Source: Callorhinchus milii (Eukaryota). From it: a DNA stretch of 64,000 nucleotides. Location of the stretch: positions 20,832,001 to 20,896,000 of the forward strand of contig NW_024704744.1 in NCBI RefSeq assembly GCF_018977255.1, written 5' to 3'. The position numbers were made by a program. This document shows, piece after piece, positions 30,901-36,900 of the stretch. Every line of letters begins with the position of its first letter. Within the stretch, counting starts at the first letter, position 1.

Positions 30901-33900
30901 CTGTTTGATCGCTCTTTGAGTCCCATCAAATAATCACAAGAGAGATTCCGATAAAGAAGGCACTTTGATCATATCTCAAAAGAACCAACTTTCATATAAG
31001 CACACAGAGAGCCCACTTTATATTTATGATTCAGAATACCACTGCTGTAACTAATACTTGTCAGGAGCATAGTGTAAGTGTAAAAATCACTTTTAGGCAC
31101 CAGGTTCATGATTATAAATAGTTTGTTGCATGGCTTCACACAATAAAAATGTCAGTGAAGAAATTGCCTGATAATCGAAGTTGCTTTGGAGTATTTCTGG
31201 AGGATATCCAGACGAACCATCCTTAAAGTCAGCCTCACACAGGTAGGTTAATGTGTGCATGTAGACTCGAGAAAGGATTCCATATCTTGCAGAGCAGGCC
31301 CAGACATTGTCTCATCATGTACATTACTTTATCCAGAGGCAAAATTTCCAGCAGTGACAGTGGGGAGGGTGGGGGAGATGGGAATCCTTAGTCATTTCTC
31401 CATTCCTACTGCTGCTCTCATGACTAGTTTAAATGTACAGCTGCTCCACCTGGTCTACTTCTCTAAACTCATTGCAGTACACAATCAAGCTGTATCTAAG
31501 TCAAAGCAGTTCTGACTAATATGGTTATGATGATGTGTATTTTCCTGCAACCAAGGGCGACACGGAAACACAGACGAAACCTCTGGAGGAATGTTGCTCA
31601 CTCTGCAGAGAGCCTGGAAGAATATGTGCAGACATTCTGCCCATAGTCACACCTGTATAGTAGAATCTATGTAGCAATTTGGAAAGCATCTCTAGATGTT
31701 GGGTTCTCGCTACAGATCAAATGCATTGTTCCTTTATATATTTAGATTTTGTTCCCATATTAAATAAATGGAAATATTTGAAAGGGTCTCATCATGCACT
31801 TTATACTCCCCAAAGTATAAACATAATCATTTGTCAAATTTTAGTTTCTCATTAGTGTCACAGGTAGGTTTCTGTAACTGCAATGTTTTTGGACATTTTG
31901 AATTTGTAGGAATAATAATCCTTGCATTTGATACAATCCTTTATTGCTTTGTTAAAGTTAGATAAAGTTCCTGAAATAATATGCTATTCTATTAAAATAA
32001 TTGAGTGCACATGGGGCAACATGCATTTCTGCTCCCTTTGTTTTTGAAATGCCTGTGAGGATATGTACTACAATAAGGCAAAATCGATAATAATTATCCT
32101 TCCATTTGATATAGTGCCTTATCACATTGGCAAAATGCCTCAAATATATTCACAACATTTTACTGTGAAGTGCAGTGACAGTATTTTGTAGGCCAATGCA
32201 GCAGTCAATTTGCGACCAGCAATGTCTAAAATTTGACAAATGATTATGCTTATACTTTTGGGAGTATAAAGTGCATGATGAGACCCTTTCAAATATTTCC
32301 ATTTATTTAATATGGGAACAAAATCTAAATATATAGAAAGGATCTGTAGCTAGAAGGACCACTGTTGGTATGCATTATGATAAGACAATATTATTATTAA
32401 TAAAGAAATAATCATAATCCTTGTATTTGCAGTTGCAGTTAGTAATTAACCAGTTTTCTTTTATTGAGAGAAGAGAGATAAGTGTGTTGCTTTTATATTG
32501 TCTGCTCCTACTTTATGCTGTTCAAAGCTGAACTTCAATTCAAAGAGATTTGCAGTGCTAAGAATATCAACTAATCAGCATTTATGGCTTTAATGAGTCA
32601 CATTTGGGATAAAAAATTGCATCCAAAATTAGTTTGGTTCTTAAAAATGGCCAAATATATTGCCTACATTTTTTAATGGATGATCCAACCATCATAACCG
32701 GGAGAGTAAATCTTCCTACATAACTGAGACTCATACAGTTATAATGCATTAGATTACCGTGTTTTCCACAGTCAGTGCTGTACAGATTTATTTTCTGGGA
32801 TCTTCACTATTTTCACACTATATGGAGTCTGTAGCTCAGTGGTTAGAGCGCTCGCCTCGCAAGCGAGAGACCTGGGTTTTATTCCCGGCAGGGCAAAATG
32901 TTGGCAAGTTTCCTAACTCCACAAACCTCCGTTTACCTAGCAGTAAGTAGGAATCCGGCTGTTAGTCAATTGGCAGATCGCTTTTCCGGGGATAATAATC
33001 CCTCAAGAAAAAAACAATAATAATTTGGTCACTCAATCCACGACTGTTTGTGGGACACTACCTTGCGCAATTGGCTGTCGTGTTTCGCCCACAAATATAC
33101 GGTCAATTCACTTTACAGTGTGTTCTGTGAAGCGCTTTGGGACGTCCTCCCGACGTGAAAAGCGCTATATCAAATGCAAGGATTATTATTATTATTATAT
33201 AGTGCCTTATCACATTGGCAAAATGCCTCAAATATATTCACAACATTTTACTGTGAAGTGCAGTGACAGTATTTTGTAGGCCAATGCAGCAGTCAATTTG
33301 CGACCAGCAATGTCTAAAATTTGACAAATGATTATGCTTATACTTTTGGGAGTATAAAGTGCATGATGAGACCCTTTCAAATATTTCCATTTATTTAATA
33401 TGGGAACAAAATCTAAATATATAGAAAGGATCTGTAGCTAGAAGGACCACTGTTGGTATGCATTATGATAAGACAATATTATTATTAATAAAGAAATAAT
33501 CATAATCCTTGTATTTGCAGTTGCAGTTAGTAATTAACCAGTTTTCTTTTATTGAGAGAAGAGAGATAAGTGTGTTGCTTTTATATTGTCTGCTCCTACT
33601 TTATGCTGTTCAAAGCTGAACTTCAATTCAAAGAGATTTGCAGTGCTAAGAATATCAACTAATCAGCATTTATGGCTTTAATGAGTCACATTTGGGATAA
33701 AAAATTGCATCCAAAATTAGTTTGGTTCTTAAAAATGGCCAAATATATTGCCTACATTTTTTAATGGATGATCCAACCATCATAACCGGGAGAGTAAATC
33801 TTCCTACATAACTGAGACTCATACAGTTATAATGCATTAGATTACCGTGTTTTCCACAGTCAGTGCTGTACAGATTTATTTTCTGGGATCTTCACTATTT

Positions 33901-36900
33901 TCACACTATATGGAGTCTGTAGCTCAGTGGTTAGAGCGCTCGCCTCGCAAGCGAGAGACCTGGGTTTTATTCCCGGCAGGGCAAAATGTTGGCAAGTTTC
34001 CTAACTCCACAAACCTCCGTTTACCTAGCAGTAAGTAGGAATCCGGCTGTTAGTCAATTGGCAGATCGCTTTTCCGGGGATAATAATCCCTCAAGAAAAA
34101 AACAATAATAATTTGGTCACTCAATCCACGACTGTTTGTGGGACACTACCTTGCGCAATTGGCTGTCGTGTTTCGCCCACAAATATACAGACAATTTACT
34201 TTACAGTAAAGTGCTAAATCGTCGTTCTACTCGAAGACAATCTTGGAAGCTAAAGACAACCCCAGACTCCTCTTCTCCATCATGAACTGGTTCCTCCACC
34301 CACCCTTTCACACCTCACCCTTCCTCACCTCAAATGCCAACTGCGAGGCGATGCTGGACTTCCTTGAATCCAAAGTCAAGGGAATACTCTCCGCTGTCCC
34401 TGCAACTGCTACCTCTTCCCCATCTCCTCCCACCCTAGCCCCTACCCACCCCTCCCTCTACACCTTTTAACCTGTTTCCCCCTCCTCTCTCATCACCACC
34501 ATAACCCATATGAAACCCACAACCTGCTGCCTCGACCCCATCCCAATCCCCCTCCTTACCTCCCAGCTCCACCTTCTTGCCCCTCTACTCATTGACATTG
34601 TTAACCTCTCCCTGTCCTCTGGTACTGATCACTCCTATCCTTAAAAAACACCCTGGACCCTTCTCTACTCCCTAACTACCGCCCCATCTTCAACCTCCCC
34701 TTCCTCTCCAAGGTCCTGGAATGAGTTGTTGCTTCTCAGCTTTGCTCCTTCCTCTCCCGCCACTCCCTTTTTGAACCCTTCCAAATGGGCTTCCGTGCCG
34801 CCAACAGCACAGAAACTGCTCTGGTCAAAGTGACAAATGACTTTCTGTTCATTTACGACCAGGGCTCCCTCTGCCTCCTCATCCTCCTTGAACTCTCTGC
34901 TGCTTTCGACACCATTGACCACTCTATCCTCATCCACCGCCTCTCCTCTCACCTCAACCTCCACGGCGTTGTTCTTGATTGGTTCAGATCGTACCTCTCA
35001 CACCACCTGCACTTCATCTCCTCAAACGGTTTCTCCTCTAGCCCCCGGACCGTTTTCTGCGGCGTCCCTCAGGGCTCTGTCCTTGGTCCCCTCCTCTTCA
35101 ATATCTATATGCTCCGTCTTGGTGACATTATCCGCAGACATGGGGTCAATTTCCATGTGTATGCGAAACACCCCCAAGTGTACCTCTCTGCCTCCACCCT
35201 TGAATCCAGGACCACTGCTGTGCTGACAGAATGTCTGTCGGACATCAAGTCCTGGATGAGAGCTAACTTTCTTCAGTTGAACGTCAACAAGACCGAGGCT
35301 CTCCTGATTGGCTCTCATCAGCGCCTCCTCACCTCAGGCGCTGATAGCATCACCATCCTTGGTTGCACACTCCACCTTGCTAAGCCAGTCCAGAACCTTG
35401 GCATCTTGTTCAACCTTCAACTATTCTTTCTATCCCGCATCTGCGCCATGACCTGCTCTGCCTTCTGCCACCTCAGCAACATCGCCCGGCTCACACCACA
35501 GGCCGCCGAAATCCTCATACACGCCTTCATTACATCGAGGCTCAACTATGCATCTCACTGCTTGTTGGCCTCCCCAACTCCTCCCTCCACAGGCTGCAGA
35601 TCATCCAGAACTTTGCAGCCCGTGTCTTCTTCCGCACTAGTCTCCGCGACCCTATCACCCAACTCCACTGGCTTCCCATAGGATGCAGTTCAAGATCCTG
35701 GTCCTCATCTTCAAAGCCCTCCAGGGTCTTGCTCCCCCCTACCTCTGTGACGTCCTAACCCCTTACCACTCTGTTCACTCCCTCTGCTCAGAGGGCTCCA
35801 ACCTGCTTCACATCCCCCACTTTGCTTGCTCCACTATTGGTGGGTGAGCCTTCCCCCACACTGCACCCATCCTTTGGAACACCATCCCGCAGTCCCTCCA
35901 TCTCACCCCCTACCTCATCACCTTCGAGACCCACCTCAAGACCCTCCTCTTCGACCGTGCTTTTGATCTCCCCTGCTTTCCCCCATGCGCTACAACCTCC
36001 CTGACCCCGACCCTCAGCTCGGGTCCATAACTCTGTCTGTCCAGTGGCTTGGGACGTCCTCCTGATGTGAAAGGTGCTATACAAATGTAATTTTGTTGTT
36101 GTTGTTCTGAAGAACGTCCCTCTTTGACTGTTTTTGGTCATCTTTCCCTTCCCCACACCTCCTCGGCTCCCACTAGCACCTGTGTCCAGCCAGCATTTCA
36201 AGATATCTTCCTGACGTGAAAGGCGCTATATAAATGTAAATTGTGTTTCTACACAAATGGTGTTGGAATGAAGACGAAAATTAGATATGTCATCTCATAA
36301 AGGATCTTCATTCTTCAATCAGAAGTACCCTCCAGTAATGAATTTCCAACTCTCTGAGAGTACATATCATATAGAGATATTAAGATTGTCTCTATGATAT
36401 TTAGATTGTTACTGTGTTCTGCCTTCACTGACAAAAGAAGTAATCTATCAACACAAATAAAATAAAATAACTATAATAATAATAATGAGAGAAAGATCAC
36501 AGAATTTATATTACAAAAGATATGAATATTAGAATCATCTTAAAGAACACAAGAAAATATAGAATGAGTAAAGGTAGGTTAGCCTATGAAGCTTATTCCT
36601 TCCAGATATTCCTACTGTGGTCCCCATCTTCCCCATTGCATCTCCTGGAAAATGTTATGGCTAGAACTGGTGTGATAGGGGAGTTTAACGGTGAGTATGC
36701 GGGCGGCAGAGGTTTGGATCAGCTGGGTCCTGTGTATGGTGGAGCTGGGGAGATTGGCGAAGAGGACATTTTGAAAGTTCGAGTCGGGAGGTGACGAATG
36801 CATGCACCAGGGTTTTGACTCTGTCTGGGGTAAGGTACAGTCGGAGGCGGGCAATATGGCGGAGGTGGACGAAGGTGATCCTGGTCAGGGACCGGATGAG

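What the first reader, a model, noticed from the sequence alone, without database searches (positions are those of the whole stretch)
32109..34208. 1088-bp tandem duplication that looks generated by a SINE retrotransposition event
Copy 2 starts exactly where the (ATT)n tail of the SINE in copy 1 ends (33196/33197). The two SINEs are identical up to 33100/34188 and then differ: copy 1 has a clean young-type 3' end, while copy 2 has a diverged end running into an L2. This is the product expected if a new SINE cDNA was primed at 32109 and resolved by annealing to the existing homologous SINE ~1 kb downstream, giving a chimeric SINE plus a ~1-kb target duplication. The mechanism is known for mammalian L1 in cell culture; I do not know of it for L2-mobilised SINEs. 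The distinct 3' ends argue against a simple assembly duplication. The event also doubles an AP-1 site (TGAGTCA at 32594 and 33682) upstream of sdc1.
Basis: partly seen in the sequence, partly recalled or inferred. Interest (0 to 1): 0.66.

Follow-up and report, generated by a model that had tools for sequence, protein, structure and literature searches.

The report
SINE-tail-bridged 1-kb tandem duplication
A 992-base stretch between a pumilio and a syndecan gene is present twice in tandem, joined by the fresh tail of a mobile SINE element, which looks like a by-product of that element's copy-and-paste insertion, a kind of accident already known from human L1 elements.

Summary
Window 32109-33100 equals 33197-34188 at 992 of 992 bases. 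The copies are joined by 96 bases: a SINE 3' end plus (ATT)5. Copy 2 starts right after that tail.

The left edge of copy 1 is ancestral, because an old minus-strand SINE runs unbroken across 32108/32109. The right edge of copy 2 continues into 19 diverged SINE bases and then a decayed LINE fragment.

The SINE in copy 1 is a chimera. Left of 33100 it carries 0 of 2 states specific to the young "type I" subfamily. Right of 33100 it carries 3 of 3, and its tail matches a type I copy at 79 of 80 bases.

Three SINE copies would be needed for unequal crossing-over between SINEs, and only two are present.

Best reading (about 0.5): a new SINE cDNA was primed at 32109 and completed by pairing in register with the resident SINE, duplicating the interval. 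Rivals are DNA-templated break repair using an ectopic SINE, and misassembly.

The kind is known for L1: large target-site duplications, small tandem duplications and chimeric L1s. Here it involves a different LINE/SINE pair in a germline assembly.

A second, older duplication (41666/42987) also starts at a SINE tail.

The AP-1 point is chance level.

No reads and no genome-wide scan were available.

The parts
32087..32226 (-). Old, 5'-truncated SINE 3' part in reverse orientation. It runs unbroken across 32108/32109, so the left edge of copy 1 is the ancestral context.
   Evidence: several BLAST alignments to other SINE copies (for example 32087-32196 to 56803-56693 at 79%, and 32086-32226 to 17024-17165 at 73%) span 32108/32109.
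32109..33100 (+). Copy 1 of the duplicated unit. It consists of unique DNA 'A' (32109-32822, 714 nt) and SINE 5' part 'B' (32823-33100, 278 nt).
   Evidence: 992 of 992 bases identical to 33197-34188. Searches agree.
32823..33196 (+). Chimeric 374-nt SINE. It has a tRNA-like head, the resident-type body B, and a young type I tail C plus (ATT)5.
   Evidence: tRNA-like head (ARAGORN tRNA-Ala(cgc) at 32826-32895; Rfam tRNA, 50 bits); subfamily switch near 33100.
33101..33196 (+). The 96 single-copy bases at the duplication junction: SINE 3' end of type I (33101-33181) plus (ATT)5 (33182-33196). This is the only new material in the event.
   Evidence: 79 of 80 bases match p42 (42662-42986), and 63 of 64 aligned bases match p37; 5 CpG, observed/expected 1.07; predicted hairpin upstream of the repeat tail (14 of 200 shuffles fold as well).
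33197..34188 (+). Copy 2 of the duplicated unit (A' at 33197-33910, B' at 33911-34188).
34189..34207 (+). Native continuation of the resident SINE ('rem'). It has 3 differences from copy 1 in 19 nt, and one of its states is shared only with copy p44.
34209..36106 (+). Decayed, 5'-truncated LINE fragment (reverse-transcriptase region to 3' end, ending in a TTG repeat). Its tail is about 80% similar to the SINE tail.
   Evidence: RVT_1, E = 1.2e-24, on 34725-35681; the reading frame is split over several frames; tail alignments. CpG observed/expected 0.46.
36107..36245 (+). A second short LINE 3'-end fragment, sitting on the tail of the first.
   Evidence: 36202-36244 matches other LINE tails. 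The wider similarity to the LINE 3' region was read by eye.
31730..31844 (.). Left arm of a 117-nt inverted repeat. The right arm is at 32226-32342 and, because of the duplication, again at 33314-33430. The left breakpoint 32109 lies in the 381-nt spacer.
   Evidence: 110 nt, 98%; 117 nt, 96.6%.
41666..41764 (+). Donor copy 'a' of a second, older local duplication.
   Evidence: 96% identity over 99 nt to 42987-43085.
42662..43118 (+). Second case of a duplication starting at a SINE tail. It consists of 5'-truncated type I SINE p42 with (ATT)5 (42662-42986), the copy a' (42987-43085), and a second 32-nt SINE tail fragment (43087-43118).

Best explanation
This is a retrotransposition-coupled tandem duplication.

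**Ancestral locus.** X - A - resident SINE (B + rem) - LINE fragment.

**Proposed steps (all inferred).**
1. A LINE-encoded endonuclease/reverse transcriptase nicked the bottom strand at 32108/32109, or at 32110/32111 given the 2-nt ambiguity.
2. It copied the 3' end of a young type I SINE RNA, that is the (AUU)n tail and the hairpin region.
3. The growing cDNA did not join close to the nick. It paired in register with the resident homologous SINE about 0.7-1 kb downstream. The shared stretch TTCGCCCACAAATATAC (17 nt) is where the exchange lies.
4. The pairing partner could have been the 3' end of a distant top-strand break that primed second-strand synthesis, or a duplex that the cDNA invaded and copied back to the break.
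5. Either route gives X - A - B - [type I tail + (ATT)5] - A - B - rem - LINE. In effect this is a 5'-truncated 96-nt SINE insertion flanked by a 992-nt target-site duplication, and it creates a chimeric SINE.

**Shown by the sequence.** The product structure, the ancestral state of both outer edges, the subfamily switch, and the absence of a third SINE.

**Inferred.** The RNA origin of the 96 nt, the nick, and the way the event was resolved.

The zero differences in 992 nt make the event very recent, possibly still polymorphic.
For: 1. **Exact duplication with a retroelement tail at the junction.** The 992-nt copies are identical, and a SINE 3' end with (ATT)5 sits exactly between them, oriented with the tail against the start of copy 2. 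Other SINE copies in the window end in (ATT)3-10, and several are followed by 'AT' as here.
2. **Polarity.** An old reverse SINE is continuous across 32108/32109, so X|A is ancestral and tail|A is the new junction.
3. **Chimerism by subfamily-specific states.** I used states shared by type I copies p37 and p42 and absent from the 8 other copies. Copy 1 carries 0 of 2 left of 33100 (33058 and 33083) and 3 of 3 right of it (33122, 33140 and 33147).
4. **Chimerism by mismatch counts.** Against p42, copy 1 has 52 mismatches in 235 aligned bases on the left and 1 in 80 on the right (Fisher p = 1.2e-6). Against positions where p37 and p42 agree, it has 7 differences in 90 on the left and 1 in 64 on the right.
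5. **B and rem belong together.** B carries a state shared only with p44 (32954 T), and so does rem (the T aligned to 33109). B-rem is therefore the native element.
6. **The tail is unworn.** It has 5 CpG with observed/expected 1.07, against 0.36 for the window. Type I copies are young: p37 and p42 are 96.6% identical over 118 nt.
7. **The tail is not a local copy.** The two nearest type I copies differ from the 96 nt. p37 has an 18-20-nt deletion, and p42 has one mismatch and a 1-nt gap.
8. **Recurrence.** Three low-multiplicity direct local duplications were found in the window, of 35, 99 and 992 nt. Two of the three start directly after a SINE (ATT)5 tail. Only 6 plus-strand SINE tails with (ATT)3 or more exist in 64 kb.
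9. **Precedent.** PMC7058536 (Fig. 7b legend, read) describes L1 cDNA invading a second 3' overhang downstream and giving a direct tandem duplication. PMC11702581 (passage read) reports small tandem duplications at L1 insertion sites. PMC5223499 (passages read) reports L1 target-site duplications over 100 bp. PMC9977147 (one passage read) reports target-site duplications with a median of 900 bp for a Chlamydomonas LINE.
Against: - Nothing in the sequence proves that the 96 nt came from RNA. A type I SINE elsewhere in the genome, used as a DNA template, would leave the same letters.
- The subfamily test rests on only 2 type I copies and 8 others from one window. With the strict consensus test the left/right contrast is modest: 7 of 90 against 1 of 64, and a rough binomial estimate made by hand (no call) gives about 0.09.
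- B could belong to a subfamily that is not sampled in the window.
- B is itself CpG-rich (observed/expected 0.84), so 'old resident against young newcomer' is not a sharp contrast.
- The cleavage preference of this LINE's endonuclease is unknown, so the target site cannot be checked.
- No clear target-site duplications could be seen by eye on the older SINE copies, so the family's normal duplication length is unknown.
- 100% identity over 992 nt is also what a misassembly would give.
- The left breakpoint lies in the spacer of a 117-nt inverted repeat. That could have caused a break without any endonuclease.
- The second case (41666/42987) does not have the same full architecture. It can also be read as ordinary break repair.
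Confidence: 0.5

Rival explanations
1. DNA-templated break repair (synthesis-dependent strand annealing or microhomology-mediated template switching) with no retrotransposition. A break in or near the resident SINE was repaired using two templates. One end invaded a type I SINE elsewhere in the genome by SINE homology and copied its last 96 nt. The other end copied the adjacent A-B interval. The two new strands joined at the 'AT' microhomology.
For: - Repair-mediated duplications with proximal donors are documented in vertebrates. They peak at a donor-acceptor distance of about 1.2 kb and include acceptors that are chimeras of two donors, one of them often on another chromosome (PMC2671141, sections 6 and 7 read).
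- The junction microhomology is only 2 nt, which fits this pathway as well as reverse-transcription priming.
- The left breakpoint lies in the spacer of a 96.6-98% inverted repeat, a possible fragile site.
- A 35-nt local duplication with no SINE at its edge shows that repair duplications occur in this window.
- The second case, a 99-nt patch inside a SINE tail with the tail partly repeated on both sides, fits this class.
Against: - The ectopic copying would have had to stop exactly at the end of a (ATT)5 tail of ordinary length. Retrotransposition gives that for free.
- In PMC2671141, 0 of 39 inspected proximal duplications had a retroelement tail at the junction. The longest proximal duplication there was 619 bp, against 992 here (sections 6 and 7 read).
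- Two of the three local direct duplications in the window abut a SINE tail. This model does not predict that, unless (ATT)n tails are themselves break hotspots.
Confidence: 0.25
2. Assembly artefact. The genome has one copy of A-B, and the second copy was created by the assembler, for example through a false overlap between haplotypes that differ by a SINE insertion.
For: - The two copies show no difference in 992 nt.
- No reads, read depth or second assembly could be consulted.
- SINE-rich sequence is prone to such errors. At least 12 SINE copies or fragments were aligned from this window.
Against: - There is no N or gap at or near the junction. The only N in the window is at 50516.
- The junction holds 96 nt that occur nowhere else in the window in identical form. 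B's private variants are linked to type I tail variants within about 40 nt, so reads spanning B-C and C-A must exist.
- The longest exact match between B and the type I copies at the switch is 17 nt. That is too short to collapse a modern assembly graph.
- An older duplication of similar design (96% identity) exists at 41666/42987 and cannot be an artefact of that sort.
Confidence: 0.12
3. Unequal homologous crossing-over between two direct SINE copies, or a plain tandem duplication of A-B-C followed by a deletion running into the LINE.
For: - SINEs are dense here and in direct orientation at several places.
- The exchange point lies inside SINE homology.
Against: - Unequal crossing-over would leave three SINEs in the order SINE-A-SINE-A-SINE. 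Upstream of the first A there is only an old reverse-oriented SINE, continuous across the breakpoint.
- A plain duplication plus deletion needs the duplication edge to fall exactly at the tail end by chance.
- It also needs 3 substitutions in the 19 nt next to the deletion against none in 992 nt. One of those three states, the T aligned to 33109, is otherwise found only in copy p44. The A at 34189 is the state seen in most of the aligned copies.
Confidence: 0.05

Closest known systems
L1-bridged tandem duplications and large target-site duplications. Human tumours: PMC7058536, Fig. 7 legend and text passages read. L1 expression models: PMC11702581, passages read. NER-deficient and HeLa cells: PMC5223499, passages read.
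   Same: A 5'-truncated retroelement with its tail sits at the junction of a direct tandem duplication. The tail abuts the start of the second copy. The proposed cause is a second break or 3' overhang far downstream of the first nick.
   Different: - The element here is a tRNA-derived SINE with an (ATT)n tail and a LINE-type hairpin. It is not L1 or poly(A).
- The case comes from a germline genome assembly of a non-mammalian-looking locus, not from tumour or culture.
- The 5' join is in register with a resident homologous element.
- No endonuclease motif can be checked.
Chimeric L1 formation and templated insertions during L1 integration. 10.1101/2024.08.27.596794: one passage read. The cell-culture papers of Gilbert et al. 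2002 and Symer et al. 2002 were seen only as citations in PMC5223499. What they say about chimeric L1s is recalled, not read.
   Same: A nascent cDNA leaves its RNA and pairs with nearby homologous genomic DNA. The result is a chimeric element and a copy of a genomic segment.
   Different: - The preprint passage gives templates as typically under 250 bp and close to the insertion site. Here 992 nt were copied.
- As I recall them, the cell-culture chimeras went with deletions of the intervening DNA. Here the resident element lies downstream and the result is a duplication.
Repair-mediated duplications by capture of proximal DNA (PMC2671141; abstract and sections 6 and 7 read).
   Same: The donor is close by, the acceptor lies inside a transposable element, the junction has short microhomology, and chimeric two-donor products are known.
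   Different: The junction carries a retroelement tail (0 of 39 proximal cases in that study did). At 992 nt it exceeds their maximum of 619 bp. The copies are directly tandem, a class their pipeline excluded.
Very long target-site duplications of Dualen LINEs in Chlamydomonas (PMC9977147; one passage read).
   Same: A duplication of about 900 bp flanks a non-LTR element insertion and is explained by distant nicks.
   Different: That is a different LINE clade with two endonucleases, where long duplications are the rule. Here the event appears exceptional and homology-guided.

Membership tests
Retrotransposition-associated tandem duplication / long target-site duplication | A retroelement 3' end with its tail lies at the junction, with the tail abutting the start of the second direct copy. 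| tested here: met
   (ATT)5 ends at 33196 and copy 2 starts at 33197 (2-nt ambiguity).
Retrotransposition-associated tandem duplication / long target-site duplication | The outer edges of the two copies are the ancestral contexts, and only the inner junction is new. | tested here: met
   an old reverse SINE is continuous across 32108/32109; rem shares a p44-exclusive state, as does B.
Retrotransposition-associated tandem duplication / long target-site duplication | The inserted element derives from an active source, not from the resident copy. | tested here: met
   the tail carries 3 of 3 type I states and matches p42 at 79 of 80 bases. The body carries 0 of 2 type I states. This rests on window copies only.
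Retrotransposition-associated tandem duplication / long target-site duplication | An endonuclease cleavage motif is present at the 3' junction. | not testable with these tools
   The cleavage preference of this LINE is unknown. The 3' flanks of 12 copies gave no clear consensus beyond 'AT'.
Retrotransposition-associated tandem duplication / long target-site duplication | An empty single-copy allele or orthologous site exists. | not testable with these tools
Chimeric element formed by cDNA pairing with a resident homologue | The join is in register, and diagnostic positions switch at one point. | tested here: met
   colinear alignment through the join. The switch lies between 33083 and 33101, inside a shared 17-mer.
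Repair-mediated duplication (SDSA capture of proximal DNA) | The donor lies within 5 kb and the junction shows microhomology or filler. | tested here: met
   the donor is adjacent, there is a 2-nt microhomology, and there are 96 nt of 'filler'.
Repair-mediated duplication (SDSA capture of proximal DNA) | No retroelement tail at the junction, and size within the described range (up to 619 bp). | tested here: not met
   compared with PMC2671141 sections 6 and 7.
Unequal crossing-over between direct SINEs | A SINE copy flanks each end of the duplicated unit, giving three SINEs in the product. | tested here: not met
   there is no direct SINE upstream of 32109, only a reverse one that is continuous across the edge.
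Assembly false duplication | The copies are identical, with a gap or no unique sequence at the junction. | tested here: inconclusive
   Identity is 100%. However, there is no N nearby, and 96 unique nt lie at the junction. Reads were not available.
tRNA-derived SINE with a LINE-derived 3' tail | A tRNA-like head, and a 3' end homologous to a LINE 3' end with a short tandem-repeat tail. | tested here: met
(tRNA-like head). (33124-33179 is about 80% identical to the LINE tail at 36036-36090). ((ATT)n tails). The LINE's clade (L2 or CR1) was not determined.

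The most novel reading that the evidence does not exclude
In this genome the SINE/LINE machinery may routinely produce local duplications of 0.1-1 kb, by letting nascent cDNA pair with and copy nearby DNA. SINE retrotransposition would then be a main source of small tandem and near-tandem duplications in a non-mammalian vertebrate germline. 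It would also be a source of recombinant SINE subfamilies. In this window, 2 of the 3 recent direct local duplications start exactly at a SINE (ATT)5 tail. In addition, one inverted 117-nt duplication begins at the 5' end of a truncated SINE.
Probability: 0.2. Interest if true: 0.7.

Novelty: new member of a known kind. Interest (0 to 1): 0.5.

Why it matters
If the event is real, it is a clean germline example of a retroelement insertion that duplicates a kilobase of host DNA and at the same time recombines two SINE subfamilies. It comes from a LINE/SINE system other than mammalian L1. It would show that this side-reaction of target-primed reverse transcription is general, and that it can be read from a single assembly.

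It also gives a simple search pattern: a direct duplication whose second copy starts at a SINE tail. With that pattern one could measure how much small-scale duplication these elements cause.

For the neighbouring genes nothing can be said. The doubled AP-1 motif is at chance frequency.

Tried and rejected
- **Target-site duplication around the resident block.** I looked for one flanking the resident SINE-LINE block (5' flank against 36100-36135 and 36240-36275). The best local alignments were reached by 613 and 381 of 2000 shuffles. No support, so whether that block entered as one template-switched retrocopy stays open.
- **Missing 3' end of the resident SINE.** I looked for it after the LINE. 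36107-36245 is another LINE 3' fragment instead, so 'LINE inserted into the SINE' is not supported.
- **Target-site duplications on the other SINE copies.** None was clear by eye on 10 copies. The family's usual duplication length remains unknown.
- **Tail hairpin.** The fold is predicted but weak against shuffles: z = -1.86, with 14 of 200 shuffles as good. It is not used as evidence.
- **AP-1 motif.** 13 sites observed against 11.95 expected. Rejected as meaningful.
- **Rfam.** Apart from the tRNA hits, the only match was far below threshold (GEBRO, 19.6 bits against 284.7). Ignored.
- **Naming the SINE family or the organism from the literature.** One search gave a listing only, nothing specific. 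Left unnamed.
- **Literature search for SINE-specific cases.** The phrases 'chimeric SINE', 'SINE-mediated duplication', 'retrotransposition-mediated duplication', 'insertion-mediated duplication' and 'large target site duplication' found 14 papers (listing seen). By title and abstract start, none describes a SINE-bridged tandem duplication. This is one search of open-access text only, so it is weak evidence of absence.
- **Not consulted.** Paper supplements. Genome-wide enrichment, orthologous empty sites and reads all stayed unchecked.

Full report
**What is there**

Window 32109-33100 and 33197-34188 are identical at 992 of 992 positions, offset 1088 (searches agree). Each unit has two parts:
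- 714 nt of unique, AT-rich DNA, called A here (32109-32822);
- the first 278 nt of a tRNA-derived SINE, called B (32823-33100).

The SINE head is tRNA-like. ARAGORN calls a tRNA-Ala-like structure at 32826-32895, and Rfam tRNA scores 50 bits.

Between the two units lie 96 single-copy bases. These are the SINE 3' end, called C (33101-33181), followed by (ATT)5 (33182-33196). Copy 2 begins at 33197. Because 33197-33198 read 'AT', the junction is ambiguous by 2 nt.

After copy 2 the SINE continues for 19 nt (34189-34207, called 'rem') with three differences from C. It then gives way to a plus-strand LINE fragment at 34209-36106. That fragment gives an RVT_1 hit (E = 1.2e-24), its frame is broken into several pieces, and its CpG observed/expected ratio is 0.46. 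Its tail, ending in a TTG repeat, is about 80% similar to the SINE tail. The SINE is therefore of the kind that borrows a LINE 3' end. I did not determine the LINE's clade.

**Which edges are old and which are new**

The first base of A lies inside an old, reverse-oriented SINE 3' part (32087-32226). That element aligns to other copies straight across 32108/32109. The left edge of copy 1 is therefore the original context, and the junction (ATT)5|A at 33196/33197 is new.

On the right, rem carries a T (aligned to 33109) that is otherwise found only in copy p44 (44580-44954). B carries another p44-exclusive state, 32954 T. This suggests that B plus rem is one native element and that B-C is the recombinant.

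A search for a target-site duplication around the resident SINE-LINE block gave nothing above chance.

**Is the SINE in copy 1 chimeric?**

I aligned twelve SINE sequences from the window. Two of them, p37 (37029-37225) and p42 (42662-42986), form a young group that I call type I. They are 96.6% identical over 118 nt.

- **Subfamily-specific states.** I used states shared by p37 and p42 and absent from the eight other copies. Copy 1 has 0 of 2 left of 33100 (33058 and 33083) and 3 of 3 right of it (33122, 33140 and 33147). Two further columns flagged by the script were alignment artefacts and are not counted.
- **Against p42.** Copy 1 has 52 mismatches in 235 aligned bases on the left and 1 in 80 on the right (Fisher p = 1.2e-6).
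- **Against positions where p37 and p42 agree.** The contrast is weaker: 7 of 90 on the left and 1 of 64 on the right.
- **Where the switch falls.** It lies inside a 17-nt stretch shared by both types, TTCGCCCACAAATATAC.
- **State of C.** It keeps 5 CpG (observed/expected 1.07). B is also fairly CpG-rich at 0.84, so the 'old against young' contrast is not sharp.

This test uses only copies from one window. A subfamily that naturally combines both parts cannot be excluded without the genome.

**What this excludes**

- **Unequal crossing-over between two direct SINEs.** It would leave SINE-A-SINE-A-SINE. There is no direct SINE before the first A.
- **A plain tandem duplication plus a later deletion.** It needs the duplication edge to hit the tail end by chance. 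It also needs three substitutions in 19 nt beside none in 992.
- **Copying from the nearest type I elements.** p37 lacks 18-20 nt of the 96-nt stretch. p42 differs by one base and one gap.

**Best explanation**

A SINE cDNA was primed at 32109 from a type I RNA. It was completed by pairing in register with the resident SINE downstream, so that A-B was copied once more. The product is equivalent to a 96-nt, 5'-truncated SINE insertion with a 992-nt target-site duplication.

The steps are inferred. The product and its polarity are shown by the sequence.

Precedents for this kind of event:
- The Fig. 7b legend of PMC7058536 describes a direct tandem duplication arising when the L1 cDNA invades a second 3' overhang downstream of the integration site.
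- PMC11702581 reports small tandem duplications at L1 insertion sites in an expression model.
- PMC5223499 reports target-site duplications over 100 bp in under 10% of HeLa events and in most events in repair-deficient cells.
- 10.1101/2024.08.27.596794 describes templated insertions that duplicate nearby DNA by an SDSA-like step.
- PMC9977147 reports target-site duplications with a median of 900 bp for a Chlamydomonas LINE.

For all of these I read passages only.

**Rivals**

1. **Break repair using DNA templates.** One template would be an ectopic type I SINE and the other the adjacent A-B. Such repair duplications with nearby donors and two-donor chimeras are documented (PMC2671141, sections 6 and 7 read). 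The left breakpoint sits in the spacer of a 117-nt inverted repeat. Against it, the ectopic copy would have to end exactly at a tail of ordinary length. In addition, none of the 39 proximal cases inspected in that paper had a tail, and their maximum size was 619 bp.
2. **Misassembly.** Perfect identity is a warning sign, and I had no reads. Against it, there is no N near the junction (the only one is at 50516). The junction holds 96 nt that are unique in the window, linked on both sides within short distances. The longest exact match that could confuse an assembler at the switch is 17 nt.

**A second case in the same window**

Self-comparison found three direct local duplications that are not interspersed repeats:
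- 35 nt (8687/10329), with no SINE at its edge;
- 99 nt at 96% identity (41666-41764 and 42987-43085);
- the 992-nt pair.

The 99-nt copy also starts exactly after the (ATT)5 tail of a type I SINE, p42. It is followed by a second 32-nt SINE tail fragment. Only six plus-strand SINE tails with (ATT)3 or more exist in the window, so two hits out of three is unlikely by chance.

The second case does not repeat the full architecture. I could not decide between three readings of it:
- a 99-nt target-site duplication with a transduced flank;
- a templated patch made during insertion;
- a repair duplication inside a SINE tail.

It does show that duplications abutting SINE tails exist as aged, real features.

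**Side claims**

TGAGTCA occurs 13 times in the window against 11.95 expected. The doubled 'AP-1 site' therefore means nothing by itself.

A Syndecan-domain exon (62969-63172, +) and a Pumilio-repeat exon (17461-17895, +) bracket the region. The duplication is either intergenic or in the first syndecan intron.

**Novelty and limits**

The kind of event is known for L1. I found no description for a SINE of this type, but that rests on a single search, of which I saw the listing only. Searches were the L1 precedent searches and did not look for SINE cases. I rate it a new member of a known kind.

Not checked: reads, read depth, other individuals, orthologous loci, genome-wide subfamily structure and enrichment.

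Noticed in passing
window 41666-41764, 42662-43118: A second, older local duplication (99 nt, 96% identity, offset 1321). Its second copy starts exactly after the (ATT)5 tail of a young 5'-truncated SINE and is followed by another 32-nt SINE tail fragment. The two tail pieces flanking the copy repeat about 30 nt of tail sequence.
   Followed up: partly
window 31730-31844 and 32226-32342 (again at 33314-33430): A 117-nt inverted repeat, 96.6-98% identical, with a 381-nt spacer. Its right arm begins within about 1 nt of the truncated 5' end of the old reverse SINE (32087-32226). The left breakpoint of the duplication lies in the spacer. It could be a foldback-type duplication, the terminal repeats of a DNA transposon, or a fragile site.
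   Followed up: partly
window 32108-32111 and 43085-43089: In both tail-junction cases the break or start point maps to nearly the same place in a SINE tail, between ..CTAT and ATCAAATG.., just 3' of the predicted hairpin. This may be chance, a pause site of the reverse transcriptase, or a cleavage preference.
   Followed up: no
window 33911-36245: The resident SINE has a complete 5' end but loses its 3' end at about 34207. There it is fused in the same orientation to a 5'-truncated LINE, which is followed by a second LINE 3' fragment on its tail. This is the layout expected from template switching during reverse transcription (LINE RNA to SINE RNA). No flanking target-site duplication was found.
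   Followed up: partly
window 8687-8721 and 10329-10363: A 35-nt direct duplication (97% identity) 1.6 kb apart, with no SINE at its edges. The second copy is flanked by GTTGAT on both sides. It looks like a small repair-mediated duplication.
   Followed up: no
window 46871-46914 and 48025-48068; 42002-42072 and 42340-42410: Two further low-copy inverted repeats: 44 nt at 100% identity, and 71 nt at 91.5%. Not examined.
   Followed up: no
window 17461-17895 (+) and 62969-63172 (+): A Pumilio-repeat exon (PF00806, E = 2.1e-16) and a Syndecan-domain exon (PF01034, E = 7.2e-25) lie on the same strand. As I recall it, this matches the pumilio-2 / syndecan-1 neighbourhood of vertebrates.
   Followed up: partly
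window 42600-42661: Just upstream of the truncated SINE p42 lies a short stretch that resembles the SINE 3' body (CAATTCACTTT ... CTGTGAA). This suggests a SINE-to-SINE junction out of register.
   Followed up: no
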